In this document: piece after piece, positions 30,908-57,616 of the stretch
Layout of the letters: every line of letters starts with the position of its first letter
Numbering within the stretch: the stretch's first letter is position 1
Made by a program: the position numbers and the translations under genes
IMG/VR virus record: IMGVR_UViG_3300047551_001006
Location: 1 to 57,889 of that record
Reading direction: 5' to 3' (one strand)
DNA length: 57,889 bases
DNA from: a virus
Lineage: Duplodnaviria; Caudoviricetes
The notes under the pieces: generated by a model
Told to the model about the DNA's origin: nothing
Databases searched by the model: none
What the model saw: only the letters and a program-made list of their open reading frames with translations

Positions 30908-33265
30908 ATGGCAGAACGCATTGTTAGTCCTGGCGTTTTCACACAAGAACGTGACCTTAGTTTCCTAGAACAAGGGGTCGGTGAAATTGCTGGTGCATTT
31001 ATTGGTCCAACACCAAAAGGACCAGCATTTATTCCAACTGTTGTCACAAGTCAACAAGACTTTGAAAACAAGTTTGGTACACCTGATGGAAAGTCATTCC
31101 TCGGTAATACAGTAAAAAATTATCTCCGTGAATCAGGACGAGCAACAGTTGTTCGTATTCTTGGTTTGGACGGATATAGTAACACCGACCACACACCAGC
31201 ATTATTATTTGCAACTGGTTCAAGTGGTTCGTTTTTATACGCCGTACTTCATCCAACTGTTTCTGGTAGTAAGATTGAAGCAGTTAGTGCAAGTGGAGCA
31301 CCAAGTAATTTTGCATTAACTATATCATCTTCGGTAATAACTGATATAGTAGAATCTGGATTATCAACAACAACCGCTGCGGGTGGTTTTATTGGAAATG
31401 CTCTTTCCTTCGGACCAACAGGAACAAAGAACGGATATGTATACAACATCTTCCCAGAAGCAGTAACATTAGCAGGTGCAGCAGTAACAATGTCAGCTGT
31501 AACAAGTTCTGATGCACTGATGTTAACTGGTAGTATATACGGTATATATAAATTTGCATCTACTCCTTGGGTGCAATCACAAACAATTGGTGCTGGAAAA
31601 TTGAATCTTTTCAAGGTACATACGTTAACCGATGGTAACGCAGCAAATAAGGCTGTCAAAATTTCTATCGTAGGACCAAAGAAAGGAACAATTACTGGTG
31701 ACTATGGTACTTTTACTCTTCAAGTTCGTGATTTTAATGATACAGATGCACAACCAACTGTATTAGAACAATGGGACAATTTAACTCTTGATACAACCGA
31801 TTCAAATTTTATAGCTCGTCGTATCGGAAATAGTGAACCAGTAACAGATGCAAATACTGGTGAAAGATATTTTCAAGGTGATTATATAAATAATTCTGCA
31901 TATATTCGTGTTGAAATGGCACCTGGTATTGATGACATCTCAACAGATGCATTACCATTCGGATTTGATAAATTACAAACACCAGTAGGAACCTCAATCA
32001 GTAATGTTGTAATTCCATCATATGTTTCATCTTCTTGGAAAACAACAAGTGGTATTAGAGGATATAGTACAACATCTTCATATTCAACATCCGATTATTA
32101 CGGATACGCATATTCATCAACACCAAATACCAACATATCATATTTGGCACCAATTCCAAGTGGTGCAGCACAAGTTGGTGCAGCATTTAATATCGAAAAT
32201 CTTGGAAATTCTGAAATCCAAGATTCATCAGGAAACTTCATTTTAGCAACTGATTTCTTAACAAATACAGATGCTACTGCAAAATTAAAGTTTACAGTAC
32301 CATTCCAAGGTGGGTTCGATGGTTCTAATCCAGCTCGTGAAATTAAAATGTATGATACAATCACATCCGCAAATACACAAGGATTTGATTTAACAAATGC
32401 AACAAGTGCTGGTTCACGTGCATATAAGAAAGCACTGGATGCAATCAGTAATCCAGACTCATTTGACATTAATTTGTTAGTATTACCTGGTGTTGTTTAT
32501 GAACTTCATTCATATGTTGCAAACTACGCATTAACTGTTTGTGAAACACGTGGTGATTGTTTCTATATTATGGATTTAACACAAGCAAGTTCAACAGTAT
32601 CAACCGCAGTAAATCAAGCAGCGTTAATTGACAGTAATTACGCAGCAGCATATTATCCTTGGGTACGAATTCTAGACACAGATACAAACAAGTTTGCATT
32701 TGTTCCACCATCAGCAGTGCTTCCAGAAGTATACGCTTATAGTGATAACACTTCAGCAGAATGGTTTGCACCAGCAGGTTTAAATCGCGGTGGAATTCCA
32801 GGAGCATCTGGTGTTAAGGTTCGTTTGGCACAAGCACAACGTGACCAATTATACGAAGGTAAGGTTAATCCAATCGCACAATTCCCAGGACAAGGTATCT
32901 GTGTATGGGGGCAAAAGACATTACAACGTAGATCATCAGCACTTGACCGTGTAAATGTTCGTCGTTTACTAATTACCGTCAAGAAGTTTATCGCAAGTTC
33001 AGCACGATTCCTCGTATTCGAACAAAATGTTGAAGCAACCCGTCGTCGCTTCCTCAACATCGTAAATCCATTCTTGGCAAATGTACAAGAACGTTCAGGT
33101 CTTTACGCATTCCGTGTTATTATGGACGAAACAAATAACACACCAGACGTAATTGACCGTAATATCTTGGTTGGTCAATTGTATCTCCAACCAACAAAGA
33201 CTGCTGAATTCATTAAGTTAGAATTCAACATTCTCCCAACTGGTGCAACATTCCCAGGGGCATAA
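30908..33265 (+). CDS. Tail sheath protein (T4 gp18-like)
   Basis: SPGVFTQERD, GPAF.PT, WFAPAGLNRG, WGQKTL, LDRVNVRRL, PTKTAEFI. Confidence 0.95.
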   Translation: MAERIVSPGVFTQERDLSFLEQGVGEIAGAFIGPTPKGPAFIPTVVTSQQDFENKFGTPDGKSFLGNTVKNYLRESGRATVVRILGLDGYSNTDHTPALLFATGSSGSFLYAVLHPTVSGSKIEAVSASGAPSNFALTISSSVITDIVESGLSTTTAAGGFIGNALSFGPTGTKNGYVYNIFPEAVTLAGAAVTMSAVTSSDALMLTGSIYGIYKFASTPWVQSQTIGAGKLNLFKVHTLTDGNAANKAVKISIVGPKKGTITGDYGTFTLQVRDFNDTDAQPTVLEQWDNLTLDTTDSNFIARRIGNSEPVTDANTGERYFQGDYINNSAYIRVEMAPGIDDISTDALPFGFDKLQTPVGTSISNVVIPSYVSSSWKTTSGIRGYSTTSSYSTSDYYGYAYSSTPNTNISYLAPIPSGAAQVGAAFNIENLGNSEIQDSSGNFILATDFLTNTDATAKLKFTVPFQGGFDGSNPAREIKMYDTITSANTQGFDLTNATSAGSRAYKKALDAISNPDSFDINLLVLPGVVYELHSYVANYALTVCETRGDCFYIMDLTQASSTVSTAVNQAALIDSNYAAAYYPWVRILDTDTNKFAFVPPSAVLPEVYAYSDNTSAEWFAPAGLNRGGIPGASGVKVRLAQAQRDQLYEGKVNPIAQFPGQGICVWGQKTLQRRSSALDRVNVRRLLITVKKFIASSARFLVFEQNVEATRRRFLNIVNPFLANVQERSGLYAFRVIMDETNNTPDVIDRNILVGQLYLQPTKTAEFIKLEFNILPTGATFPGA

Positions 33266-34254: not shown

Positions 34255-37200
34255 ATGACAGATATTAAACTTGATATACCGGATATTACAGTTTTAGTAA
34301 ATAAACCAGACGTAGTAGTTCGTAGTCGTTTGAATGGAACTGGGTCATATATTAATGTTGCCGATTCTGCCATATCTTCATCATATGCATTAACTGCGAG
34401 TTATGCATTAAATGCAAGTAGTGGTAGTGGTGGTGGTGCAACTGGTGCAACTGGCCCAGTAGGTGCGACTGGTCCACGTGGTGCAACGGGTGTTCAAGGT
34501 ATTCCAGGTACACCAGGTGGTGCAACAGGACCAACAGGACCAACAGGTAGTGCAGGTGCAACGGGTGTACAAGGTGCAACAGGTATACAAGGATCAACAG
34601 GACCAACCGGTGTTGTAGGACCAACAGGTGCAACGGGTGTTACTGGTAATCAGGGTCCACAAGGCCCACAAGGTCCAATAGGTGCTACGGGTCCAGTAGG
34701 TAGTACTGGACCACAAGGTGAAATAGGTATTACAGGTCCAACAGGTGCAACAGGTATTCAAGGGCCAACCGGTAGTACAGGTCCTATAGGTCCACAAGGT
34801 GTAACTGGATCAACGGGTCCAACTGGTATCCAAGGACCAACAGGTAGTACTGGTCCACAAGGTGAAATTGGCATCACAGGCCCAACAGGTGCAACGGGTA
34901 TTCAAGGACCAACAGGTAGTACAGGACCAATAGGTTTACAAGGTGTAACTGGTTCTACAGGTCCAACTGGTATCCAAGGACCAACAGGTAGTACCGGTCC
35001 ACAAGGTGCAACAGGTATTATTGGTATTACAGGTCCAACAGGTGCAACTGGTATTCAAGGTCCAACGGGTGCAACTGGTGTTGCTGGTGCAGATGGTGAT
35101 AGATACCACACTACTTCGACTAGTTCATTCGCAATATCTAGTAGTGGTCAAGTCACTGTATTCACAACAGACTTAAATCTTGATTACAGTATTGCTCAAA
35201 CCATCATTTTAGCATACGATTTAAATAATCACCAACACGGTGAAGTAGTAAGTTACAATCCATCTACTGGTGAATTAATATTTAATAGAACCACATCCGA
35301 AGGTTCAGGGACATATAGTAGTTGGTCAATCAATTTGGACGGTGCGGTTGGTATTCAAGGTGCAACAGGTCCAACTGGTATCCAAGGACCAACAGGTGCA
35401 GTGGGACCAACAGGTAGTACAGGTCCAACAGGTCCAATCGGCATTACAGGACCAACTGGCATCCAAGGGCCAACGGGTGTACAAGGTGTAACAGGCAGTA
35501 CAGGTCCAACTGGTATACAAGGACCAACAGGTAGCACAGGTCCAATAGGACCACAGGGTGTTACTGGTAGTACAGGTCCAACAGGTCCACAAGGTGTTAC
35601 TGGTAGTACTGGTCCGCAAGGTTTAACAGGACCAACAGGACCAACAGGACCAACAGGTCCACAAGGTGTAACAGGTTCAACAGGACCAATAGGATTACAA
35701 GGTGTCACGGGTTCTACAGGTCCAACTGGTGCAGAGGGTCCAACTGGTGTACAAGGCGTTACAGGCAGTACAGGTCCACAAGGTCCATTAGGCCCAATAG
35801 GGCCAACAGGTCCAACAGGTTCTACTGGACCGATTGGTACCACCGGTCCAACAGGCGTTACAGGTCCAACCGGTATTCAGGGTCCAACAGGACCAACCGG
35901 TAGTACAGGTCCAACAGGCCCACAAGGTACTACAGGACCAACTGGTGCATCGGGTGATAGATACAGTACTACAAGTAGTACATCACTCACTATAGGAACT
36001 GGTACACAAACACTTACCGTTGGTACAGGACTTTCATACAGTATTGGTCAATCAGTAATTATCGCATTTGATAATAGCAATAAAATGGAAGGTAGTGTTA
36101 CTTCTTACAATAGTGGAACAGGTCAATTAGTTGTCAACGTAACATCAACTACTGGTTCGGGAACACAAGCATCATGGCAAGTTAGTTTGGCGGGTGCACC
36201 AGGACCAGCAGGTGCAACCGGTCCAACAGGTCCTGCAGGTCCAAATATTCCTGGATTACTAAGTAGTTCTGCACAAATTAATGCTCTAACTGGTGTTACG
36301 GCATCATACGCAAGTGCAGTAAGTGGTGGAACTGCAGATTATCTTCCATTATGGACTACAGAAGATACATTAGGTAAAAGTATATTGTATCAAACTGGTT
36401 CAAGTATCATCTTCAACGGAACAACATTCTTTGATGAAACCGCACCAGATATTTTTGGATTATATGGTGGTATAACAGATTCATTTAATTTAATTACCGC
36501 ACACGCAACAATTGACAATTACCTACAAATTAATGTTCGTAATTTAAGTACAGGTTCACAAGCGTCATCTGATATAGTAGCAGTCAAAGCATTAGGTACT
36601 GAAGATGTTGGATATATCAATATGGGTATCAACAACGACACGTATGTTGGTAGTCGTATATTTGATACTGCTGGTGATGGATATCTTTATACCACAGGTA
36701 GTAATTTAATTATCGGTACAGCAACATCTGGTAGTACACTTACACTATTCGCTGGTGGAGAAACCTACGGTGATGGTAAATTACGATTACGAGCAAATAA
36801 TCAACACGAATTAACAGGTAGTATAACAGCATCACAAGGATTTGTTGGTTCATTAACAGGAACCGCATCAGTTGCAACAGCAGTTAGTGGCGGAACAGCA
36901 AATTATATTCCATTTTTCAATACAGCAAATACATTATCTAGAAGTAGATTATATCAAACTGGTTCAAGTATCATATTTGGTAGTACAACCTTTTTTGATA
37001 CCAGTGCACCTGATGTACTTGGTATTTATGCGGGTGTTGTCAATTCATTTAATTTAATATCTGCACACGCAACCGTAGATAATTATTTACAAATTAATGT
37101 ACGTAATTTCAGTACAGGTTCAAACGCATCATCCGACATCGTAGCTACATCCGATACTGGTACTGAAGAAACTGGTTACATTAATATGGGTATCAACGGA

Positions 37201-40200
37201 ACCAGTTTTGTAGGTGATGCAATACATGACTTACCTGGTGATGGATACATCTTCACTACAGGAAGTAATTTAGTAATTGGTACAGCGACAGCAAATAGTA
37301 CACTTACATTATTCGCTGGTGGTGAAAACTATAGTAATGGTAAGTTAAGATTACGAGCAAATAATCAGCACGAACTTACTGGTTCATTAACCATTTCAGG
37401 ATCAAATACGCTAACCAATATTGGTGCAGCTGTATTTAGTGGTTCATTAAATGTAACACAAGGAGTTACAGGTTCGTTATTTGGAACCGCAAGTGTGGCA
37501 CAAAGTGCACTAACCGCATCATATGCAGCAAATGTTCCAGCAACGGCATCATTTGCAACATCCGCATCATTTGCATTAACCGCAAGTTATGTACCTGGTG
37601 CAGCAAGTGATTGGGATTCTGTAGCAAATAAACCAGCAAATATTGTTTCATCATCTACACAAGTCAAAGCATTCCTACCAGATGGTACGGTAAGTGCGTC
37701 AGCACAAGTTGATATCACAGCAACTACAGGTTATAGTACCTTTAGCTCGTCACTATCAGCGATAGATGCTGCACAAAATGCTCGTATAGATAATTTATCA
37801 AGTGTAACAAGTTCATACGCATTACAATCGCAACTCGCTGGCGTAGCATCAAGTTCAGCACAAGTTAAAACATATTTACCAGATGGTACCGTATCATCTT
37901 CTGGTCAAGTTCAATTGAGTGGTATTACGGGTACAACATTTGCAACAGCAGATTTCACATTCCCACAAAACCTAACTGTTACCGGATTACTTACAGCAAC
38001 ATCACAATCAGTACAATATGTAAGTTCATCACAACTAAATGTATCAACTAATAAAATTATAGTTAACACAGATAGTTCATTACGATTTGGTGGATTGACT
38101 GTTATTGACTCTGGTTCTGTTGGTGCATCAGGTTCATTATTCTGGGATAGTTTAAATGACCGCTGGTTGTACGAAGATGTTGCTGGTGGTGTGTATACTA
38201 GTGCAATATTAATTGCAGGACCAAAAAATACTGGTGCAACTGGTGGTGAACGTGGATTAGTATCGGGTCGTGTTCCTGTAGCAAGTGGTGATGACCACAT
38301 CGATACAGCACCAGAATCAAGTTCTATTCGTGTAGATTTCCCATCACGATTAACACATATTGAAGCAGGACTGTACGTAACAGGACAAGTATTTGCAACA
38401 GGATATACAGGTTCATTACTTGGTACATCAAGTTGGGCAATTAACGCATTAACAGCAAGTTATGTACCTGGTGCAGCAAGTGATTGGGGTACGTTGGCAA
38501 ACAAACCAGCAGATTTGGTCAGTAGTTCTACACAAGTTAAGGCATTCCTACCAGATGGTACAGTATCAAGTTCAGCACAATATCCAGGATGGGTAACTGC
38601 TTCATCACAAATTGACTACAATAACATCCAAAACAAGTTAAGTGGTGTTATTAGTAGTTCAACACAATTTAACGCACTATCTGGTACATCTGCGTCATTT
38701 GCATTAACGGCAAGTTATGTACCAGGAGCAGCAAGTGATTGGGATTCCGTAGCAAACAAACCAGCGGACATCGTTTCAAGTTCTACACAAGTCAAAGCAT
38801 TTTTACCTGGCGGTACATTATCAAGTTCAGCACAATATCCTGGTTGGGTCACCAGTTCAGCACAAATTGTTTGGTCATCGGTAAACTATAATAGTGGTAT
38901 AGTATCGTCATCAGCTCAAGTTAAAACACTATTACCAACAGATACAGTATCTTCATCCGCACAAGTCAAGGCATTCCTCCCAGGTGGTACAGTAAGTGCA
39001 TCGGCACAATATGCAGGATGGGTAACCGCATCTTCACAAATCGTAGTACAAAATACCACAGGTATCGGTGCATTAGCAACAACTGGTTCAAATACATTTA
39101 TTGGTAATCAAGTAATTAGTGGTTCATTAACCACAACCGCAGATACGATGACCTTTAACGGGTCGATGGCAGTATCGGGTACACTTTCCGTAACTGGTAG
39201 TTTAAATACCTTAAATGGTGGTCTTACAGGTTCATTACTTGGAACCAGTAGTTGGGCAAGTAACGCGGTATCTGCTTCACACGCAGTAACCGCTAGCTAC
39301 GCACTTAATGCACAATCTGGTGGAACGGGAGCAGGATTCCCATTCAGTGGTTCTGCAGTAATTACAGGATCGTTGGAAGTAGTCAATACAGGTAGTGTTG
39401 GTGGAATTACTGGTTCATTCAAGGGTGATGGTTCACAACTTACCAACTTACCAGTAGCAACAATTCTCAGTAGTTCCGTTGCAATCGACACATATACATT
39501 CTCTGGTGATGGGTCAGTCAAGAATTATGTATTATCACAGAGTTATGATATTGACTCATTAATGGTGTCGTTGGATGGTTTAACACAAGTAAAAACCACA
39601 GACTATACGTTATCTACTAATACACTAACATTTGTAGACACACCACCGTCAGCATCAAATATTCTCGTTAGAGCATTCTTAAATGTAACCCAAAATATGA
39701 CGGGTTCATTTAGTGGTTCGTTCTTGGGAATTGTATCAACCGCATCATTCGCAAGTGCAATCAATAGACAAATTAGTGGAAATGTAGGAATTACAGGATC
39801 GTTGGATGTTACAGGACCAGTAAGTTTAAGTGGTGATTTGTTTGTCGGTGGATACTTAACAGCAGATAGATTATTGGTATCGTCATCGGTCATCTACGAA
39901 TCTGGTTCTACTAAGTTCGGTGACTCACCAGATGATACACATCAATTTACTGGGTCTGTGTCCTTTACCCAAGTACCAAATATTAGATTACAAGCAGATA
40001 ATCACTTGTTTATAGGTGATGGTACAACAACAATCTATACATTATCATCATCATATGACCCATCAATTCTAACAGTCTCGGTGGATGGTATGTTGAACGC
40101 ATTAACCTCGGATTATTCAGTCTCAACAAACCAATTAACGTTCGTTTCTGCACCACCAAGTGAATCAAACGTCTTTGTCAAGGGACTCAGAATAACATTA

Positions 40201-40206
40201 TCGTAA
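34255..40206 (+). CDS. Giant tail fibre-like protein with collagen-like tracts and internal duplications
   Basis: 1983 aa; two long GPT/GAT/GST tracts; duplicated ~185-aa domain; SSS(A/T)Q repeats; two C-terminal GDG..Y.LS.SYD..L.VS.DG domains. Confidence 0.75.
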
Positions 40207-49405: not shown

Positions 49406-50137
49406 ATGTTAAGACACTTTCCACTTAGAACATTTACATCATCATTCGCATTTACGGGATCGTCAGCAGCAACGGCATCTTTCGTATTGACGGGTATGAC
49501 CGCATCGTATTCTGTTACGGGTGGTGGACCAACCGGAGCAACGGGGGCAACTTCTGTAGTACAAGGGGTTACGGGTGTTACTGGTGCAACGGGTATAGGA
49601 CCAACAGGACCAATAGGAACCACAGGTCCAACAGGTCCACGGTCAGCAACAGGACCAACTGGACCAACAGGTATCACGGGGCCAACGGGTGCAACTGGTG
49701 CAACGGGGGCGGCATCTACTGGTCCAACCGGTGTAATCGGTGTTTCGGGTAGTACTGGACCAACGGGTGCAACAGGGGCAACAGGTATTATTGGTATCAC
49801 AGGTGCAACAGGTCCAACAGGTGCAAGTGGTCCAACTGGTGTAACAGGTATTCAAGGTATCGCAGGACCACAAGGTGTTACGGGAGCAACTGGACCAACT
49901 GGACCAACTGGTGTAGCTGTATCTGGTATCCAAGGACCAACGGGTGTTACAGGTCCAAGTGGTCCTCGTGGTGCATCGGGTCCGCAAGGAACAATCGGAA
50001 CTACAGGTCCAACAGGACCAACAGGTGCACAAGGTACGGCATTTACAGGACCAACTGGTGCAACCGGTGCAACAGGAGCAACGGGACCAACAGGTGCACA
50101 AGGTTCCACAGGTCCAACTGGTGCTAACACACCATAA
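49406..50137 (+). CDS. Collagen-like protein A
   Basis: 243 aa; FPL..TSSF..TASY N-terminus; ~200-aa Gly-X-Thr tract. Confidence 0.8.
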
Positions 50138-50152
50138 TAGAGAGTAATAGTT

Positions 50153-51274
50153 ATGACGTTTAAGTTTTTCCCATTTGGGGCACCAACCACGAGTTCGTTC
50201 GCTATTTCGGTTGTCGGTACTACGGCAACCGCATCGACGGCTATCAATAGTGGTTCGGGATTCTTAACGGCGTCATTTGCATTAGGCGGATTTTCAGGAC
50301 CAACAGGTGTATCGGGACCAACTGGTGCAACGGGAGCAACAGGCCCAACTGGACCAACTGGTGTTTCTGGGTCAACTGGTGTATTGGGTGTATCGGGTTC
50401 TACTGGACCACAAACATCAGGATCAACAGGTCCAACAGGTCCAAGTGGTCCAAGTGGTATATCGGGGCCAACGGGTCCAACAGGTCCTACTGGAGCAACT
50501 GGTGTAATCGGTATTACTGGACCATCTGGTATTCGTGGTGCAACTGGTGCAACGGGAGCAACAGGTCCAACAGGTCCAACAGGTAGTATAAGTACGACCG
50601 CGGGCGCAATCGGTGTATCGGGTGTTACAGGACCAACAGGATCTTCGGGTCCGACTGGAGTACAAGGGTCCACAGGTCCAACTGGTGTCGGTCCAACGGG
50701 TGCAACAGGACCAACGGGGCCATCGGGTTCTACAGGTCCAACAGGTCCAGTAGGTCCAACGGGTGCAACTGGAGCAACAGGACCACAAGGTGCAACAGGA
50801 CCAAATACGTTCGGTATTTCAGGTCCAACAGGAGCAACGGGTGCAACTGGTGTCGTAGGAGCAACAGGTATACAAGGTGCACCAGGTCGTGCAGTATTTT
50901 TCGTAACAGGTTCATGTAACCAAACACATTCTGACGTTACGGTTCCGCATAGTGATATTGCACAAAGTCATACTAATATTACGGCCGCGCATACAGACAA
51001 TACCACCAATCCATCACACTCGGATATTGTCAGTACTACACCAGCATCACATACGGACAATTATACACCACACACCAATACTACAATCAACGCATCACAT
51101 AGTAATATTACAATAAACGCGTCACATTCTGATATTTCACATTCTAATATTACAATTAACGCAAGTCATACTGATAATACAACAAACTTCCACACAGACA
51201 ATTACACACCACACGGTAATAGTTATACCACCAATAATCATGGAAATTCATACGGCGGAGGTAATCCGTTCTAA
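50153..51274 (+). CDS. Collagen-like protein B with C-terminal H-x-(D/N) repeat domain (P1)
   Basis: 373 aa; ~200-aa Gly-X-Y tract, one Cys, then 14 HxD/HxN motifs (from nt 50927). Confidence 0.8.
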
Positions 51275-51286
51275 TCGGATATAGTT

Positions 51287-51949
51287 ATGGCTCATTCTAA
51301 TTTTTATATAGCCGCATCGCACACCAACGCAGCAGGGTCGCATACCAATAGTACCGCTGCGCACACGGATAATACTACTCCTGCGGCGCATACTAATATT
51401 GCACATCAAAATGCAACTATTCCTGCAGCACATACCGACAACACCACTTCGTTTAGTAACATAGCATTCAGCAACATAGCATTTTCCAATAGTTACACTC
51501 CACACACTAATATCGCACACAGTAACATCGCACATAGTGATGGTGGATTTACAAATACTACAATACCATTTAGTAATATCGCAAAAGCACATACAAATAT
51601 AGCGCATACCGATACACCGAAGTCACATACTGATATTGATTTTAGTAACATAGCATTCGCAAATAATTACACAAGTAATAATCACACAGATAATACTACA
51701 AATCCAGCACATACTGATATCGCACACACCAACAATAGCTCGGCACATACTGATAGTACAATTAACAATTCACACGCAGATAATACAACACTACATTCGA
51801 ATATTGCACATGCAGATTCACCGCATGTCGATTCTTACACTCCGGCACAGTGCTCACAGTGTCCTGGTGGTAATGCAGCAGAATGTGACGAATTCTGCGC
51901 TTGTTATCCAAACTGTGGATGTCAAGATAATATATGTGTAGGTACATAA
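51287..51949 (+). CDS. [H/F]-x-[D/N] repeat protein with C-terminal 8-Cys domain (P2)
   Basis: 220 aa; 28 motifs, then CSQC..C..CAC..CGC..C. Confidence 0.8.
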   Translation: MAHSNFYIAASHTNAAGSHTNSTAAHTDNTTPAAHTNIAHQNATIPAAHTDNTTSFSNIAFSNIAFSNSYTPHTNIAHSNIAHSDGGFTNTTIPFSNIAKAHTNIAHTDTPKSHTDIDFSNIAFANNYTSNNHTDNTTNPAHTDIAHTNNSSAHTDSTINNSHADNTTLHSNIAHADSPHVDSYTPAQCSQCPGGNAAECDEFCACYPNCGCQDNICVGT

Positions 51950-51976
51950 TAAAATGTTTATAATAGGGAATAACTA

Positions 51977-52741
51977 ATGCCAGGTCCTACTCATACAAAC
52001 ATAGCACATAGTGATATAGGATTTAGTAACGTTTCTGCCGCGCATACTGACGTTACTATTAATTCTTCACATACGGATAATACACTTCCGCATGGTAATA
52101 TTGCATTTACTAATAGCACTATTCCCGCAGCACACACAGACAATACAACATTTACAGCACATACCAACACACCACACAGTAATATATCATTTGTTAACAG
52201 TACCACACCATTTAGTAATATTTCTTTTTCAAATAGTTACACACCACATAGTAATATTGGAGCATCGCATACAAATATTGCACACAGTAATACAGCATTT
52301 AGTAACGTAGGATTTAGTAATATCGCACAAGGACACACCAATATATCACATAGTAATATCAGTCATAGCAACATTTCTGCCGCACATACGGACAATACTA
52401 CTAACCTATCACATAATGATACGGGACATGTAGATTCTACAATCAACGCAAGTCACACGGACAATTATACAGGTCCATCGCATAGTGATAATACGACACC
52501 AGCATCGCATAGTGATATCGCATTCTCAAATATCACCATTAATGCATCACATGATGATATTACAATAAATGCAAGTCATACAGATATAGCAAAAGCACAT
52601 ACAGATACAACCATTAACGCATCACACACTAATATCGTCAGCACCACACCAGCGGCACATACAGATAACACTACATCATTTAGTAATAGTTATACTCCAC
52701 ACTCAAATGTTGCGGCAGCCCATAGTAACGCATTCCTATAA
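51977..52741 (+). CDS. [H/F]-x-[D/N] repeat protein (P3)
   Basis: 254 aa; 36 motifs making up almost the whole protein. Confidence 0.8.
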   Translation: MPGPTHTNIAHSDIGFSNVSAAHTDVTINSSHTDNTLPHGNIAFTNSTIPAAHTDNTTFTAHTNTPHSNISFVNSTTPFSNISFSNSYTPHSNIGASHTNIAHSNTAFSNVGFSNIAQGHTNISHSNISHSNISAAHTDNTTNLSHNDTGHVDSTINASHTDNYTGPSHSDNTTPASHSDIAFSNITINASHDDITINASHTDIAKAHTDTTINASHTNIVSTTPAAHTDNTTSFSNSYTPHSNVAAAHSNAFL

Positions 52742-52750
52742 TACGAGAAT

Positions 52751-53614
52751 ATGACGCAATTTTTTCCACTTGGTACACCAACCACATCAAGCTTCTCACT
52801 CACCAGTAGTTTAGCGTTTGTCGCAACGTATGCGGTGAATGTAAATGTGTTAACCGCATCTTACGGACCAGGACCAACAGGACCAACAGGTGTTCGTGGA
52901 CCATCAGGACCAACAGGACCACAAGGACAAGCTGGTTCAGGTTCTACAGGTCCAACAGGTGCAACAGGACCAACAGGATTAACAAGTTCAGGTCCAACAG
53001 GACCAACTGGACCTGCGGGGACAATAGGTATAACAGGTATTACTGGTGCAACGGGTGTAACAGGTAGTACAGGTCCAACAGGACCAACTGGTATCACGGG
53101 TGTAATTGGTATTACGGGTATTAGTGGTGTAACAGGCATCGCATCATTCGCATCGGGTTCTACAGGACCAACTGGAGCAACTGGAGCTACTGGTGCAACG
53201 GGTGTGGTGGGTATTACTGGTGCAACAGGGGTAATCGGTATTACAGGACCAACAGGATTAACAAATCTTGTTGGTATTACAGGCCCAACAGGACCAGTAG
53301 GATTACCCACCACAGGTTCCACAGGTCCGTCAGGTCCACAAGGTGCAACGGGTGTAATAGGTGTTACTGGTATATCCGCAGCAGCTGCATCGGCAGGAAC
53401 GGGTGGAGTGGGAGGTACTACAGGAGTCCAAGGACCAACAGGACCACAGGGTTCTCGTGGAGTTGATGCAGAATGTCCGGCTGGGTTTGTTACCTGTACT
53501 GAAGGATCCCCTTCATCTGGGTCAAATTTCTATACTAATCCAAATAGTAGTATATATTCTGTGGTTTGTGCAGCAAGACCTGTAGGTTGTTTAGGAACAT
53601 TTACTTGTGTCTAA
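52751..53614 (+). CDS. Collagen-like protein C with C-terminal Cys-containing domain
   Basis: 287 aa; FFPLG.PTTSSF N-terminus; ~200-aa Gly-X-Y tract; 5 Cys in the last 50 aa. Confidence 0.8.
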
Positions 53615-53687: not shown

Positions 53688-54899
53688 ATGCCAAAGGCAC
53701 CTGGTAGTATTTGGGTTGATGGAGAAACCTTTAGATTTATTGATGCAACAGGAAACGAGTACTATTATACAGGTACTGCGGGTTCCAGTCCTGCGGGAGC
53801 AAAGGCGGGTTCAATCTGGGTAGACGGAAATGATTTCCATTATATTTCCGCTACCGGTGTTGACCGCACTATTGCATCAAGTGATTTGGGAGCGGCATCA
53901 GGAGCAAAGGTTGGATCGGCATGGGTGCAAACCACATTTTGGAATTGGATTTCTACCGCTGGTAATGTTCGTCGTGGTCATACAGACGTAACCGCAGCAC
54001 ATACGGACAATACCACCCCAGCATCCCACACAGATATCGCGTTCGTCAATACCACGATTAACGCAGCACATACAGACAACACGACGATAGCAGCACATAC
54101 AAACAACTATACTCCGCATACAAACACCACGATTAACGCAGCACATACTGATAATACCACCAACGCAAGTCACACAGATATCGCACACACCAACACCACG
54201 ATTAACGCAGCACATACCGATACCACAATCAACGCATCACATACCAACAACTATACTCCACACACTAACACAACGATTAACGCAGCGCATACAGACAACA
54301 CCACACCAGCTGCACATACCGATAATACGACTCCATTTAGTAATATAGCATTTAGTAATTCATACACACCAAATAGTCATACTAACAGCTATACTCCACA
54401 TAGTAATATCGGTCACACCAATATCGGTGCAGCACATACCGATAACACTACACCATTTAGTAATACAGCATTCGTCAATAGTTATACCGGAAATAATCAT
54501 ACCAACAATTACACGCCGCATAGTAATATCGGACATAGTAACATAGGATTTAGTAATATTGGATTCAGTAATATCGGATTCAGCAATATCGCAAAGGCAC
54601 ATACAGATAATACTACTAACGCAAGTCATACCAATATCGCACACAGTAATGTCGGGTTCAGTAACAGTTATACTGGATTTACCAATAGTTATACTCCATT
54701 TAGTAATGTTGGATTTAGTAATATTGGTGTAAGTCATACTAATATTGGACATAGTAATGTAGCACATAGTAATGTCGGTGCAAGTCATACCAATATTGGA
54801 CACAGTAATGTTGGGTTTAGTAATAGTTATACACCATTTGCTAATAGTTACACACCAAATAATCACGGTAACAGTTACCAAGGTGGTCCTTCGTTCTAA
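53688..54899 (+). CDS. Protein with N-terminal 3x GS(I/A)WV domain and 44 [H/F]-x-[D/N] motifs (PA)
   Basis: 403 aa; 97-aa head, then repeats from nt 53979; SD GGAG; TACTTATA at 53648. Confidence 0.82.
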   Translation: MPKAPGSIWVDGETFRFIDATGNEYYYTGTAGSSPAGAKAGSIWVDGNDFHYISATGVDRTIASSDLGAASGAKVGSAWVQTTFWNWISTAGNVRRGHTDVTAAHTDNTTPASHTDIAFVNTTINAAHTDNTTIAAHTNNYTPHTNTTINAAHTDNTTNASHTDIAHTNTTINAAHTDTTINASHTNNYTPHTNTTINAAHTDNTTPAAHTDNTTPFSNIAFSNSYTPNSHTNSYTPHSNIGHTNIGAAHTDNTTPFSNTAFVNSYTGNNHTNNYTPHSNIGHSNIGFSNIGFSNIGFSNIAKAHTDNTTNASHTNIAHSNVGFSNSYTGFTNSYTPFSNVGFSNIGVSHTNIGHSNVAHSNVGASHTNIGHSNVGFSNSYTPFANSYTPNNHGNSYQGGPSF

Positions 54900-54921
54900 T
54901 TATGTTTAACGGATAAATAAT

Positions 54922-55845
54922 ATGTCGCATTCAAATTTTTACAATGCTGCATCACATACTAATGTGGCTACAAGTCATACTAATATTGGATTCAGTAATG
55001 TTGGATTCAGTAACAGCTATACTCCGTTTAGTAATGTCGGATTTAGTAATGTTGGATTCAGTAATAGTTACACCCCACATAGTAATGTAGCACATAGTAA
55101 TGTTGGGGCAAATCATACAAATATTGGTGCAAATCACACGAATATCGGATTTAGTAATGTCGGATTCAGTAATTCATACACACCAAATAGTCATACTAAC
55201 AACTATACCCCACATAGTAATATCGGTCACAGTAATATTGGGCATAGTAACATCGGATTTAGTAATATAGCATTTAGTAATATTGCAAAGGCACATACAG
55301 ATAACACCACAAATGCAAGTCACACCAATATCGCACATACTAATATTGGTGCAGCACATACAGATAGTACTACACCATTCAGTAATATAGCATTTAGTAA
55401 TATTGCAAAGGCGCATACTGATACCACTATCAACGCAAGTCATACAAATATTGCGCATAGTAATATTGGTGCGGCACACACGGATAATACTACCAATCCA
55501 TCACATACTGATAATACTACCAACGCATCACACACCGATATTGCAAAGGCACACACCGATACCACGATTAACGCTTCACATACTGACAATACCACCAACG
55601 CAAGTCATACAGATATTGCGTTCGTCAATACCACCATTAACGCCGCACATACGGATAATACCACTATCGCATCACACACCGATATTGCGAAGGCACATAC
55701 AGACAACACCACACCAGCCGCCCACACAGATAACACCACCCCAGCATCACATACCGACATCGCACATACTAACACTACGATTAACGCAGCCCATACGGAC
55801 AACACCACACCACATAGTGACCAACCAGTATTCGTTGGTCCATAA
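54922..55845 (+). CDS. [H/F]-x-[D/N] repeat protein with 44 motifs (PB), mirror partner of PA
   Basis: 307 aa = MS + 295 aa of repeats + HSDQPVFVGP. Confidence 0.82.
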   Translation: MSHSNFYNAASHTNVATSHTNIGFSNVGFSNSYTPFSNVGFSNVGFSNSYTPHSNVAHSNVGANHTNIGANHTNIGFSNVGFSNSYTPNSHTNNYTPHSNIGHSNIGHSNIGFSNIAFSNIAKAHTDNTTNASHTNIAHTNIGAAHTDSTTPFSNIAFSNIAKAHTDTTINASHTNIAHSNIGAAHTDNTTNPSHTDNTTNASHTDIAKAHTDTTINASHTDNTTNASHTDIAFVNTTINAAHTDNTTIASHTDIAKAHTDNTTPAAHTDNTTPASHTDIAHTNTTINAAHTDNTTPHSDQPVFVGP

Positions 55846-55910: not shown

Positions 55911-57224
55911 ATGACTATTGAATTAGAACCAGTTGGAGTAGTATGTAATTTAAGTTGCCCGTATTGCTACGAACATCCTATGCGCGATGCGGGAAATTTT
56001 CGTCATAAAACATACTCTGTAGAGAAAATGTTAGAAGGTCTTGCCAAAGAGGGACATAACTTTACCTTATTTGGTGGTGAACCATTATTAACTGATATTG
56101 ACGATTTAGAAACTATTTTTAAGTGGGGTTATGAACGTTATGGAATGAATGGCGTTCAAACAAATGGTGTTTTAATCACCGACCGCCACATCGAAATGTT
56201 TAAGAAGTATAACGTTCACGTTGGAGTGTCCCTTGACGGACCCGATGAAATGAACGATACTCGTTGGGCTGGGTCATTAGAAAAGACCAGAGAAGCCACC
56301 CGTAAATCATTTGAAGCTATTAAAAAGTGTTTAGCTAATAAACTATCACTTGGATTAATTATTACCATTCATACAAAGAATGGATTACCAAAACATCGTG
56401 AACGTTTCAAGAATTGGATTAAAGAACTCCAATCGTGGGGTGTTGATGGAGCAAGACTTCATCCATTAGAAATTGACCATAGTGCAGTCGGTGAAACATT
56501 AGCCCTAACACCAGAACAAAATATTGAATTCTTACTTGATATGTGGGAATTTGAACTTAAAGAATTGAACGTTCCTGGTAAAAAGTCATTCCACTTTGAT
56601 ATTTTCCGTGATGTGGAAGATATGTTAAAAGCACAAGATGATAACGCTACGTGTACGTTCTTATCGTGTGACCCATATACTACACACGCGGTGCAAGGTA
56701 TTGACTCGCAAGGTAACAAAGCAAATTGCGGTCGTGGAAATAAGGAAGGTATTAACTGGATTAAGGCCGATGTAGACGGATTCGAACGTCAGATGGCTTT
56801 ATATAATACTCCACAGGAGCATGGTGGTTGTCAGGGATGTCGTTTCTTTATTATGTGTAAGTCGCACTGTCCTGGTACAGGTATTGAGATGGACTGGAGA
56901 AATCGTACTGATACTTGCATGAATTGGAAAGTAGCGTTTGGTATCTACGAAAAGTTGATGGTGGAAAAAGGTGAGACACCATTATCATTAAGTCCAGAAT
57001 TAAAGAAATATGAAGATATTTTAATGTATGGTTATAGTCGCGGTGTAGAACTTAGATTAAAACATATTAAGCAATATCTTGAAGGAAACTTCAATATAGA
57101 AGCATTTATTGACAGTTACCTTAAAAACCAAGCATTTGGATCACAAATACCACATGCAGACCATACTGATGAAACTGGACGTTACGCTATTGAGTATAAA
57201 GAGAAGTACGGATATTTACCTTAA
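55911..57224 (+). CDS. Radical SAM/SPASM-domain enzyme (peptide/protein maturase-like)
   Basis: CNLSCPYC (CxxxCxxC), FGGEPLL, QTNG, VGVSLDG; SPASM-type Cys array CTFLSC..NC..CQGCRFFIMCKSHCP..C; SD GAGG. Confidence 0.92.
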   Translation: MTIELEPVGVVCNLSCPYCYEHPMRDAGNFRHKTYSVEKMLEGLAKEGHNFTLFGGEPLLTDIDDLETIFKWGYERYGMNGVQTNGVLITDRHIEMFKKYNVHVGVSLDGPDEMNDTRWAGSLEKTREATRKSFEAIKKCLANKLSLGLIITIHTKNGLPKHRERFKNWIKELQSWGVDGARLHPLEIDHSAVGETLALTPEQNIEFLLDMWEFELKELNVPGKKSFHFDIFRDVEDMLKAQDDNATCTFLSCDPYTTHAVQGIDSQGNKANCGRGNKEGINWIKADVDGFERQMALYNTPQEHGGCQGCRFFIMCKSHCPGTGIEMDWRNRTDTCMNWKVAFGIYEKLMVEKGETPLSLSPELKKYEDILMYGYSRGVELRLKHIKQYLEGNFNIEAFIDSYLKNQAFGSQIPHADHTDETGRYAIEYKEKYGYLP

Positions 57225-57244
57225 CATTAAAGAGGATATGTAAA

Positions 57245-57616
57245 ATGATTGACGGATTACACGCAGACCATATAGACACAACTGGTGCCTACGGTCAAAA
57301 ATTCGCAGTAGTACAAGAACTACTCGAAACAGGAGTACTAAAAGAAATTCCAGAGGAATTCCGTGAAAAGGGTGCAGAAAGTGTACCAGTAGTAACTACT
57401 TCACAAACAGTAATTGGTGATGAATTTGATATGACCAACGGACATGCTGATCACGTTGACGAAACTGGTCGCTATGCACGTGCATATGAAGAACGATTCG
57501 GTGCAGGATCACTTGGTGAATCATCAAACTCACAACAAGAAGAACAAGCTGGTAATTCATGGAAGTCTTTCTTACAAAAGATTATCGCTGAAGAAAAGAG
57601 TAAGTTGAAGGTTTAA
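57245..57616 (+). CDS. Small acidic protein with two HADHxDxTGxY motifs
   Basis: 123 aa; LHADHIDTTGAYG and GHADHVDETGRYA; the motif also ends the radical SAM enzyme. Confidence 0.75.
   Translation: MIDGLHADHIDTTGAYGQKFAVVQELLETGVLKEIPEEFREKGAESVPVVTTSQTVIGDEFDMTNGHADHVDETGRYARAYEERFGAGSLGESSNSQQEEQAGNSWKSFLQKIIAEEKSKLKV

What the first reader, a model, noticed from the sequence alone, without database searches (positions are those of the whole stretch)
53979..55845. Two adjacent proteins carry exact mirror-image repeat codes: a 'base-paired' antiparallel protein zipper
Seen: PA (53688..54899) and PB (54922..55845) each contain exactly 44 [H/F]-x-[D/N] motifs spaced 5, 7 or 9 residues apart, spanning 295 aa in both. 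PA intervals are 7,9,5,9,9,7,9,9,5,9,9,7,9,9,7,5,9,7,5,7,7,5,9,7,5,5,5,5,7,9,5,5,7,7,5,7,5,5,7,5,5,7,9. PB intervals are this list reversed, 43/43. Pairing motif i of PA with motif 45-i of PB, all 26 Phe motifs (14 in PA, 12 in PB) face a His motif and never another Phe. 17 of the 18 His/His pairs include an Asp. All 14 seven-residue units pair an (N/S)(Y/T)T(P/G) linker with an (I/V)-small-x-small linker. Both genes are on the + strand and each motif reads N to C, so a DNA inversion or duplication cannot produce this. Inference: the chains form a register-locked antiparallel heterodimer (a long two-stranded beta ribbon or needle, possibly metal-bridged through His/Asp) whose repeat expansions co-evolve under selection. 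The T4 gp37 HxH iron needle is a loose precedent for His-lined antiparallel fibres. I know of no described two-gene system with a complementary spacing code.
Basis: partly seen in the sequence, partly recalled or inferred. Interest (0 to 1): 0.97.

Follow-up and report, generated by a model that had tools for sequence, protein, structure and literature searches.

The report
Split mirror-coded phage fibre hairpin
Two neighbouring phage tail-fibre genes encode the outgoing and the returning strand of one long thin fibre shaft, and the two strands appear to find each other through a spacing-and-residue code that can be read from the sequence and that changes in both genes together in related phages.

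Summary
PA and PB each carry 44 [H/F]x[D/N] motifs over 295 residues. PA's 43 spacings equal PB's reversed, 43/43; the best of 200,000 shuffles was 29. Phe always faces His, 17/18 His/His pairs hold Asp, and all 14 seven-residue units are complementary.

In 14 distinct related gene pairs, the code of one gene differs from the reversed code of the other by 0-2 edits in 12 pairs. It differs by 6 in the other 2. Between phages the codes differ by 2-35 edits. Other relatives carry PA and PB fused in one chain, and its code is a palindrome around a central tip (0 mismatches in 101 spacings).

PA and PB are therefore most likely the two arms of an out-and-back fibre hairpin split at its tip. The closest known analogue is the stem of the T4 gp37 needle, but I found no sequence homology to it.

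Stoichiometry, metal binding and the role of the always-adjacent radical SAM enzyme remain inferences; the fold predictions gave nothing usable.

This scan reached the same reading earlier on three other genomes. I found no published description.

The parts
53688..53978 (+). PA N-terminal domain (aa 1-97): three beta-hairpin repeats, the presumed anchor at the base of the fibre
   Evidence: Conserved at 56-98% identity in 22 relatives. The AlphaFold2 model built on that alignment has pLDDT 91.9 and pTM 0.81 and is all-beta. Foldseek found no PDB fold match at E<=0.001. A profile of the domain finds 453 cluster representatives at E<=0.001.
53979..54896 (+). PA outgoing arm: 44 [H/F]x[D/N] motifs in units of 5, 7 or 9 residues, ending in the tip peptide
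54897..54921 (+). Break at the hairpin tip: the TAA stop of PA plus a 22-nt spacer before the PB start codon, which lies in another frame
   Evidence: The same break recurs in related contigs. It is absent in the fused relatives.
54922..55812 (+). PB returning arm: 44 motifs whose spacings are PA's in reverse order
   Evidence: 43/43; register control.
55813..55845 (+). PB C-terminal tail (HSDQPVFVGP plus stop). It ends every PB-like protein and every fused protein seen here
   Evidence: By a regex, 41 of 63 distant family members tested end in a similar H-x-D-x-P...VG tail.
55911..57224 (+). Radical SAM enzyme of the peptide-maturase (SPASM-type) kind, always directly downstream of the fibre gene(s)
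   Evidence: Pfam Radical_SAM 1.2e-15. All NCBIfam matches are far below their cut-offs; the best are the anaerobic sulfatase maturase and several cyclophane-forming maturases. Present downstream in 13 of 13 loci that have downstream DNA.
57245..57616 (+). Small 123-aa protein with two HADHxDETGRYA-like stretches, syntenic with the radical SAM gene
   Evidence: found in 12 loci after the radical SAM gene.
50153..52741 (+). Paralogous second system D1 (50153..51274, collagen plus outgoing arm), D2 (51287..51949, outgoing arm plus Cys-rich knob) and PC (51977..52741, returning arm), obeying the same mirror rule
   Evidence: D2 intervals 27 down to 4 equal PC intervals 1 to 24 (24/24). PC intervals 26-35 against D1 intervals 10 down to 1 agree in 8/10, with one 9/11 swap. 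Pfam Collagen on D1.

Best explanation
PA and PB are the two arms of one out-and-back fibre shaft that has been split into two genes at its distal tip.

**Proposed layout.** PA leaves its N-terminal beta-hairpin domain and runs outward for 44 rungs. PB starts next to PA's C-terminus at the tip and runs back antiparallel for 44 rungs. It ends with a conserved tail beside PA's N-terminal domain.

**What makes a rung.** Each rung is one unit from each chain, of equal length (5/5, 7/7 or 9/9 residues). Within a rung:
- a Phe motif sits opposite a His motif;
- two His motifs come with Asp;
- a bulky Thr/Pro-rich 7-residue linker sits opposite a small Ala/Gly one.

The irregular order of rung lengths fixes the register and makes PB specific for PA.

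**What is shown and what is inferred.** The mirror code, its co-variation across phages and the fused palindromic forms are shown. The antiparallel in-register pairing is strongly inferred (about 0.85).

The following are inferred by analogy only:
- Three such hairpins wrap round a threefold axis, as in the T4 gp37 needle stem (about 0.5). The paralogous system starts from a collagen triple helix, which points the same way.
- His/Asp rungs bind metal on the axis (about 0.4).
- The adjacent radical SAM enzyme matures the fibre, for instance by ring cross-links on the aromatic-x-Asp/Asn motifs (about 0.35).

**Likely role.** A long thin host-recognition fibre, roughly 70-100 nm if the arms are extended. 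The tip is where knobs are inserted in relatives.
For: **In the window.**
- Mirror code 43/43 against a best of 29 in 200,000 shuffles.
- Residue complementarity.
- A second system in the same window obeys the rule: D2 against PC, 24/24.

**Co-variation in relatives.**
- Among 14 distinct split pairs, the edit distance between the outgoing code and the reversed returning code is 0 in 4, 1 in 4, 2 in 4 and 6 in 2. Shuffled means are 4.9-24. The codes of different loci differ by 2-35 edits.
- Tandem block duplications occur in mirrored order in L043. PA holds a 138-nt block (1.8 copies) followed by a 120-nt block (2.2 copies). PB holds a 120-nt block (2.5 copies) followed by a 138-nt block (2.0 copies).

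**Fused forms.** Of 12 single-chain proteins, 8 are more palindromic than all 500 shuffles. Examples: L008 (869 aa) 0 edits over 101 intervals, L004 0/37, L009 (558 aa) 0/39, L048 2/58. The tip is a plain turn, a Cys-rich knob at the end of the outgoing chain, or a knob at the start of the returning chain.

**Register control in 10 pairs.** Phe/Phe is 5 of 426 at the mirror register, 19-22 at slide +-1 and 58-63 at slide +-3 or 4. His/His pairs with Asp number 150 of 172. F-x-D never occurs, 0 of 167.

**Context.** Tail sheath and tail-fibre genes lie upstream. The portal is T4-like.

**T4 analogue.**
- The gp37 stem is residues 882-931 out and 960-1009 back, with the tip 932-959 inserted at the turn. 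It is a trimer with seven iron sites and a Phe core (passages read in PMC6957217).
- HxH at 915/929 mirrors HxH at 966/980, and the returning arm has 9-residue units.
- H-x-H metal sites in intertwined trimeric shafts are described as a common fibre feature (passages of PMC6363177).
Against: **No physical or structural evidence.** AlphaFold2 on a fused relative without an alignment gave pLDDT 40.9.

**No homology to gp37.**
- BLASTP best E = 4.1.
- Pfam Phage_fiber and Collar hit gp37 but none of these proteins.
- No match among PDB sequences at E<=10.

**Exceptions to the mirror rule.**
- 2 of 14 pairs (L002, L044) have a PA that lacks one six-unit block which PB keeps.
- 4 of 12 single-chain forms do not beat the shuffles under the strict motif parse (L009 288 aa, L054, L006, L056).
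- L006 and its kin show a local shift of one 5-unit near the tip.

**Against a trimer.** The PA N-terminal domain folds confidently as a monomer with three internal repeats. This gives no support to a trimer, though it does not exclude one.

**A caveat on co-variation.** The two arms are adjacent DNA, so part of the co-variation is co-inheritance of one cassette. The window and L041 share a 98% identical N-terminal domain, yet their shaft codes differ by 20 edits.
Confidence: 0.82

Rival explanations
1. A plain 1:1 heterodimer. One PA and one PB form a single two-stranded ribbon with no threefold axis, stabilised by His/Asp contacts or by enzymatic cross-links.
For: The mirror code needs only two strands. 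The PA N-terminal domain is modelled confidently as a monomer with three internal repeats. The window has three different collagen paralogues, of which only one carries an arm. If these formed a heterotrimer, it would deliver only one arm.
Against: A two-stranded ribbon about 300 residues long has no known precedent as a stable fibre (my own knowledge). The collagen-type relatives carry the whole hairpin on a collagen chain (L004, L009, L048), and collagen is trimeric. The known analogue is a trimer.
Confidence: 0.2
2. Width-matched sheets rather than length-matched strands. Each unit runs across the fibre axis as a short strand plus turn. PA and PB each form a stack, and the two stacks pack face to face. 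The order of unit lengths must then mirror because the chains run in opposite directions.
For: It would also give a mirror code. Runs of 5-residue units give weak Pentapeptide repeat hits (22 bits against a 26.4-bit cut-off). Every unit length is odd, which a continuous flat strand would not tolerate without a bulge.
Against: Units of 5 residues are too short for a strand plus a turn (inference). The Pfam hits are below the gathering score. T4 gp37 has 9-residue units in an extended intertwined stem.
Confidence: 0.08
3. The motifs are above all substrate sites for the neighbouring radical SAM enzyme, which would make three-residue aromatic-to-C-beta ring cross-links as in triceptides. Structure follows from that modification rather than from metal binding.
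For: Triceptide synthases act on aromatic-X-X motifs that include His and Phe, for example HTK, HAA, HNR and FTK (passages of PMC11499958). The radical SAM gene lies directly downstream in 13 of 13 loci with downstream DNA. All 13 loci with >=75% identical enzymes carry repeat proteins upstream. The best NCBIfam matches include cyclophane-forming maturases. Tyr replaces His in three distinct sequences.
Against: This reading alone does not explain the mirror, the Phe-opposite-His rule or the link between Asp and His/His pairs. Every NCBIfam score is far below its cut-off, for example 73 bits against 349. At some expected motif positions the residues are (A/G)(I/V)(S/T), which are not aromatic. 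It is compatible with the main explanation rather than an alternative to it.
Confidence: 0.35
4. No pairing. PA and PB are independent fibres, and the mirror is a by-product of low-complexity repeats or of chance.
For: The proteins are low-complexity. Short palindromic stretches arise easily in codes built from three letters: self-mirror runs of 8-14 occur in unrelated comparisons.
Against: 43/43 against a best of 29 in 200,000 shuffles. The same rule holds in 12 of 14 pairs with different codes. The fused forms are palindromic. The residue rules peak at the mirror register. No DNA inverted repeat is present.
Confidence: 0.02

Closest known systems
[quoted passage not shown]
   Same: - Out-and-back arms of equal length (882-931 and 960-1009), with the tip domain inserted at the turn.
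- The core is built of His motifs and Phe; it is a trimer with seven iron sites (passages of PMC6957217).
- HxH positions 915/929 mirror 966/980, and the returning arm has 9-residue units that start with H-x-H.
- It sits at the distal, receptor-binding end of a T4-type tail fibre.
   Different: - No detectable sequence similarity; Pfam Phage_fiber and Collar hit gp37 only.
- The motif here is H/F-x-D/N, not H-x-H.
- Both arms carry a motif at every rung. In gp37, the positions 989 and 998 have no HxH at the mirrored place in the other arm.
- About 300 residues per arm instead of 50.
- An irregular 5/7/9 rung code with complementary linkers.
- The hairpin is split into two genes (or three, in the paralogous system).
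- A radical SAM gene is always adjacent.
H-x-H metal sites in intertwined trimeric fibre shafts (R-type pyocin fibre, phage CTX)
   Same: A short His motif on a threefold axis in a thin intertwined shaft. The authors propose it as a common fibre feature (passages of PMC6363177).
   Different: There is a single site in a parallel shaft, with no out-and-back arms, no repeat code and no second gene.
Triceptides and their radical SAM/SPASM synthases
   Same: Repeated aromatic-X-X motifs with His or Phe in first place, next to a radical SAM enzyme of the peptide-maturase kind.
   Different: Triceptide precursors are short peptides with a leader. These are 300-870-residue structural proteins in a tail-fibre module. 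The enzyme reaches no named family's cut-off. No cross-link has been shown.

Membership tests
T4 gp37-type needle / Pfam Phage_fiber repeat (PF03335) | Match to the Phage_fiber repeat profile or sequence similarity to gp37 | tested here: not met
   PF03335 and Collar hit the gp37 C-terminal 226 aa, but not PA, PB, L008, L009 or L004 at E<=10. BLASTP of PB against gp37 881-1026 gives a best E of 4.1.
T4 gp37-type needle / Pfam Phage_fiber repeat (PF03335) | His-x-His motifs | tested here: not met
   Third position in 2,224 motifs of 70 repeat proteins: Asn 1,250 and Asp 974. The motif was defined by the pattern [HF].[DN], so His at the third position was not counted by this parse.
T4 gp37-type needle / Pfam Phage_fiber repeat (PF03335) | Out-and-back arms of equal length, with the tip at the turn | tested here: met
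   By sequence logic only: 295 against 295 residues and 43/43 mirrored spacings; fused relatives are palindromic about a tip. gp37's arms are taken.
T4 gp37-type needle / Pfam Phage_fiber repeat (PF03335) | Homotrimer with metal ions on the axis | not testable with these tools
   The fold jobs gave no usable model of the shaft. This needs expression, SEC-MALS, ICP-MS or cryo-EM.
Pentapeptide repeat proteins | Score at or above Pfam's gathering cut-off | tested here: not met
   Pentapeptide_2 scores 22 bits (PA) and 14.9 bits (PB) against a cut-off of 26.4. Pentapeptide_4 scores 18.1 bits on D2 against 38.
Triceptide (three-residue cyclophane) systems | Aromatic-X-X motifs in the substrate | tested here: met
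   88 [H/F]x[D/N] motifs in PA plus PB. The definition of the motif is from passages of PMC11499958.
Triceptide (three-residue cyclophane) systems | The neighbouring enzyme belongs to a named cyclophane synthase family | tested here: not met
   YhhB 67.7 bits (cut-off 445), AmcB 62.3 (425), GrrM/OscB 52.1 (310), FxsB 49 (370), XyeB 38.5 (450). Only the N-terminal radical SAM core is matched.
Triceptide (three-residue cyclophane) systems | An aromatic-to-C-beta cross-link is present | not testable with these tools
   Needs mass spectrometry or NMR of protein co-expressed with the enzyme.

The most novel reading that the evidence does not exclude
This fibre family uses a sequence-readable pairing code between strands. 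The code has two layers: rung length (5, 7 or 9 residues) and residue complementarity (Phe opposite His, bulky linker opposite small linker, Asp where two His meet). It specifies partner and register much as base pairing does in nucleic acids. Separate polypeptides could thereby assemble into defined hairpins and even a three-way junction (D1/D2/PC), and evolve by compensated rung insertions. The finished shaft would be locked by a dedicated radical SAM enzyme.
Probability: 0.3. Interest if true: 0.95.

Novelty: new variant of a known kind. Interest (0 to 1): 0.8.

Why it matters
**For structural biology.** If the reading holds, the partner and register of a protein-protein interface about 300 residues long can be read from sequence alone. 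Natural variants then show how such an interface evolves: mirrored block duplications, fission at the tip, and knob insertion.

**For protein design.** This would give rules for long, thin, register-locked assemblies.

**For phage biology.** It defines a large unnamed fibre family. The N-terminal domain alone finds 453 cluster representatives, and none of the 7 I looked up has a functional name. The strict linkage to a radical SAM enzyme makes an enzymatic modification of virion fibres directly testable. Radical SAM cassettes beside tail-fibre genes of aquatic T4-like phages are mentioned without a stated function in the passages I read (PMC7029224).

Tried and rejected
**Complex prediction.** Three copies of PA 293-403 plus three copies of PB 1-107. 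The verdict was 'no answer' (score 0.00, partner pLDDT under 50). It is neither support nor evidence against.

**AlphaFold2 without an alignment.** On the fused 288-aa relative of L009: pLDDT 40.9, with no usable shaft model.

**Foldseek.** The N-terminal domain model against the PDB: no match at E<=0.001. The best hit was E 0.26, to choline-binding repeats.

**Searches that found little.**
- phmmer of PB against PDB sequences: 0 hits at E<=10.
- The search for homologous proteins with PB: 1 hit only, because the 8,000-candidate limit was swamped by low-complexity words. This says nothing about rarity.
- blastn and tblastn against isolated phages found no shaft relative. Only the N-terminal domain matched, in two Thermus phages at 29-31% identity.
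- ESM Atlas: the best cluster carries gp37_trimer at score 0.78, below the level the tool calls more than a lead.

**Ideas rejected.**
- DNA inversion.
- A retro-protein. This follows from the sequence: the motifs read H-x-D from N to C in both chains.
- Read-through or frameshift fusion of PA and PB. The genes are in different frames, stops lie between them, and the break is conserved in related contigs.

**Distant family members.** Under my strict motif parse only 9 of 63 are more palindromic than 99% of shuffles. Their units are mostly 4-5 residues, so the test has little power. I do not claim the mirror rule for them.

**Literature.** Five searches found no description of this family or of a mirrored spacing code. 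The library lacks most subscription journals. Bartual et al. 2010 was not held, so gp37's anatomy is quoted from passages of PMC6957217. Supplements were not consulted.
Full report
**Setting.** The window is a 57,889-base virus record, estimated to be about 30% complete. It belongs to a T4-like myovirus. The portal is 55% identical to that of Microcystis phage Mel-JY01. A tail sheath gene lies at 30908..33265 and a 1,983-aa tail-fibre protein at 34255..40206. The finding lies at the end of this tail-fibre module. In order the module holds:
- collagen-like genes (49406, 50153 and 52751);
- three His/Phe-repeat genes, which I call D1, D2 and PC;
- PA (53688..54899) and PB (54922..55845);
- a radical SAM gene (55911..57224) and a small gene (57245..57616).

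**The observation.**
- The pattern [HF].[DN] hits PA 46 times and PB 45 times. I dropped two PA hits in the N-terminal domain and one PB hit at residue 6. That leaves 44 motifs in each, spanning 295 residues in each.
- PA's 43 spacings equal PB's in reverse, 43 of 43. Read forward they agree in 15 of 43. The best of 200,000 shuffles gave 29.
- At the mirror register there are 26 Phe/His, 18 His/His and no Phe/Phe pairs (P = 0.0046).
- 17 of 18 His/His pairs hold Asp, against 2 of 26 Phe/His pairs.
- All 14 seven-residue units pair a Thr/Tyr-Thr-Pro type linker with an Ile/Val-small type linker.
- No DNA inverted repeat of note exists.

**The same rule a second time in the window.** D2's spacings 27 down to 4 equal PC's spacings 1 to 24 (24 of 24). 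PC's last ten mirror D1's first ten in 8 of 10, with one swap of 9 and 11. D1 ends, and D2 begins, with peptides like those at the PA/PB break. The DNA around the two breaks aligns at 78% column identity.

**Relatives.** I fetched loci in two ways: through the radical SAM protein (23 viral contigs) and through PA's N-terminal domain (8 viral and 23 metagenome loci).
- All 13 loci whose radical SAM protein is at least 75% identical have repeat proteins upstream. Of the 10 more distant loci, 2 have one weak candidate and 8 have none within the DNA fetched.
- Among 14 distinct complete PA/PB-like pairs, the edit distance between the outgoing code and the reversed returning code is 0 in four, 1 in four, 2 in four and 6 in two. 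Shuffled returning codes give means of 4.9 to 24.
- Only the shortest pair (L011=L060, 12 spacings) is reached by a shuffle.
- The small non-zero values come from end effects of the motif parse. In L006 and its kin they come from a local shift of one 5-unit near the tip.
- The outgoing codes of different loci differ from each other by 2 to 35 edits. The code therefore changes freely between phages but stays mirrored within each.

**How the code changes.** In L043 the tandem block duplications lie in mirrored order. PA has a 138-nt block (1.8 copies, 91% matches) followed by a 120-nt block (2.2 copies, 87%). PB has a 120-nt block (2.5 copies, 88%) followed by a 138-nt block (2.0 copies, 80%).

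**Exceptions.** L002 and L044 are close kin of L043. Their PA lacks one copy of the 120-nt block (L002) or the 138-nt block (L044), while their PB keeps both copies. They may be real intermediates, recombinant variants or assembly faults. I could not decide which.

**Fused forms.** Other relatives carry PA's N-terminal domain and PB's C-terminal tail in one chain. Collagen-type relatives carry a whole hairpin on the collagen chain. Their codes are palindromes about a central irregular segment:
- L008 (869 aa): 0 edits over 101 spacings;
- L004: 0 over 37;
- L009 (558 aa): 0 over 39;
- L048: 2 over 58;
- L053: 4 over 73;
- L055 and L058: 4 over 50 each.

In all, 8 of 12 beat every one of 500 shuffles, 2 tie the best shuffle, and 2 (L006, L056) do not, under the strict parse. 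The centre may be a short turn, a 37-42-residue Cys-rich insert, a Cys-rich knob at the end of the outgoing chain, or a knob at the start of the returning chain.

On a tree of the short N-terminal domain, the split forms related to the window form one well-supported clade of 10. The fused forms lie outside it. The window's domain is 98% identical to L041's although their shaft codes differ by 20 edits. Whole shaft cassettes are evidently exchanged.

**Register control.** In 10 pairs, sliding the partner motif by motif gives Phe/Phe counts of 5 (of 426 pairs) at the mirror register. At one step the counts are 19-22, at two steps 48-49, and at three or four steps 58-63. At the mirror register His/His pairs with Asp are 150 of 172, and Phe/His pairs with Asp are 48 of 249. 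Phe motifs never carry Asp, 0 of 167. The complementarity of 7-residue linkers holds in nearly all pairs of the window-like loci. It is looser near the tips of L008 and L009.

**What it most likely is.** The only reading I can find that accounts for all of this is an out-and-back hairpin whose two arms run antiparallel in register, rung by rung. In this phage the chain is broken at the tip. The closest known structure is the stem of the T4 gp37 needle:
- arms 882-931 and 960-1009, with the tip inserted at the turn;
- a trimer with seven iron sites made by His and a Phe core;
- HxH at 915/929 mirrored by HxH at 966/980, and 9-residue units in the returning arm.

This is an analogy, not a shown homology. 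The collagen start of the paralogous system suggests a trimer. The monomer-like model of PA's N-terminal domain (pLDDT 91.9) neither supports nor excludes one.

**The neighbouring enzyme.** The radical SAM gene follows the fibre gene(s) directly in 13 of the 24 loci examined. The other 11 end before that point. The enzyme reaches no named family's cut-off. Its best partial matches are the anaerobic sulfatase maturase and several cyclophane-forming peptide maturases. Triceptide synthases act on aromatic-X-X motifs that include His and Phe (passages of PMC11499958). A ring cross-link on each motif is therefore a fair hypothesis, compatible with the hairpin and untested.

**Spread.** A profile of the N-terminal domain finds 453 cluster representatives at E<=0.001.
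- Of the 150 listed, 69 carry at least six short spacings of the motif.
- Many end in a similar H-x-D-x-P...VG tail.
- The four I read are dense H-x-D shafts.
- Of the seven I looked up, the two that carry a name are called 'hypothetical protein' and the other five carry no name.
- Under my strict parse only 9 of 63 are clearly palindromic. The mirror rule is therefore shown only for the closer relatives.

**Earlier notes of this scan.** Follow-up agents reached the same reading on three other genomes. I reached mine from my own calls.

**Verdict.** The antiparallel, register-coded pairing is strongly supported by comparative evidence. Stoichiometry, metal and enzymatic maturation remain open.

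Noticed in passing
window 50153-52741: D1, D2 and PC obey the same mirror rule and imply a three-way junction. D1's first 10 units pair with PC's last 10. D2's units 4-27 pair with PC's first 24. D1's last 3 units (8,7,9) roughly mirror D2's first 3 (9,7,7). In L002/L003/L041 the D1 and D2 parts are one chain, and in L004/L009/L048 the whole hairpin is one chain.
   Followed up: partly
window 51175-51365 and 54800-55000: The D1/D2 gene break and the PA/PB gene break are paralogous at the DNA level (78% column identity), including the stop, the start and the flanking tip peptides. A tip cassette seems to have been copied into the other fibre gene, splitting it.
   Followed up: partly
window 55911-57616; L041-L061: The radical SAM gene and the small gene with HADHxDETGRYA-like stretches follow the fibre gene(s) directly in every locus that has downstream DNA (13 of 13). 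The enzyme's own C-terminus carries the same stretch.
   Followed up: partly
L002:7936-9935, L044:133-2114, L035:5001-6107: Close kin of L043 have a PA that lacks a 40-aa, 46-aa or 29-aa block of units. In L002 and L044, PB keeps the mirrored block. These may be natural unmatched variants or assembly faults.
   Followed up: partly
L041:6369-6761 (similar gaps in L004 and L048): Where PA ends in a Cys-rich knob, a 130-aa ORF without repeats lies between PA and PB. It may be a tip partner or an assembly helper.
   Followed up: no
window 53688-53978 versus L041:5001-5291: The N-terminal domains are 98% identical while the shaft codes differ by 20 edits and the tips differ (plain versus knob). Shaft cassettes are exchanged as units between conserved ends.
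   Followed up: partly
P0002-P0151: The N-terminal domain defines a large unnamed family. Many members have very dense H-x-D shafts with 4-5-residue units, no Phe, and the same C-terminal tail. Some carry extra domains inserted in front of the domain or between its repeats.
   Followed up: partly
window 49406-50137, 50153-51274, 52751-53614: Three collagen-like paralogues with similar N-termini and different C-termini: none, an outgoing arm, or a Cys-rich domain.
   Followed up: no
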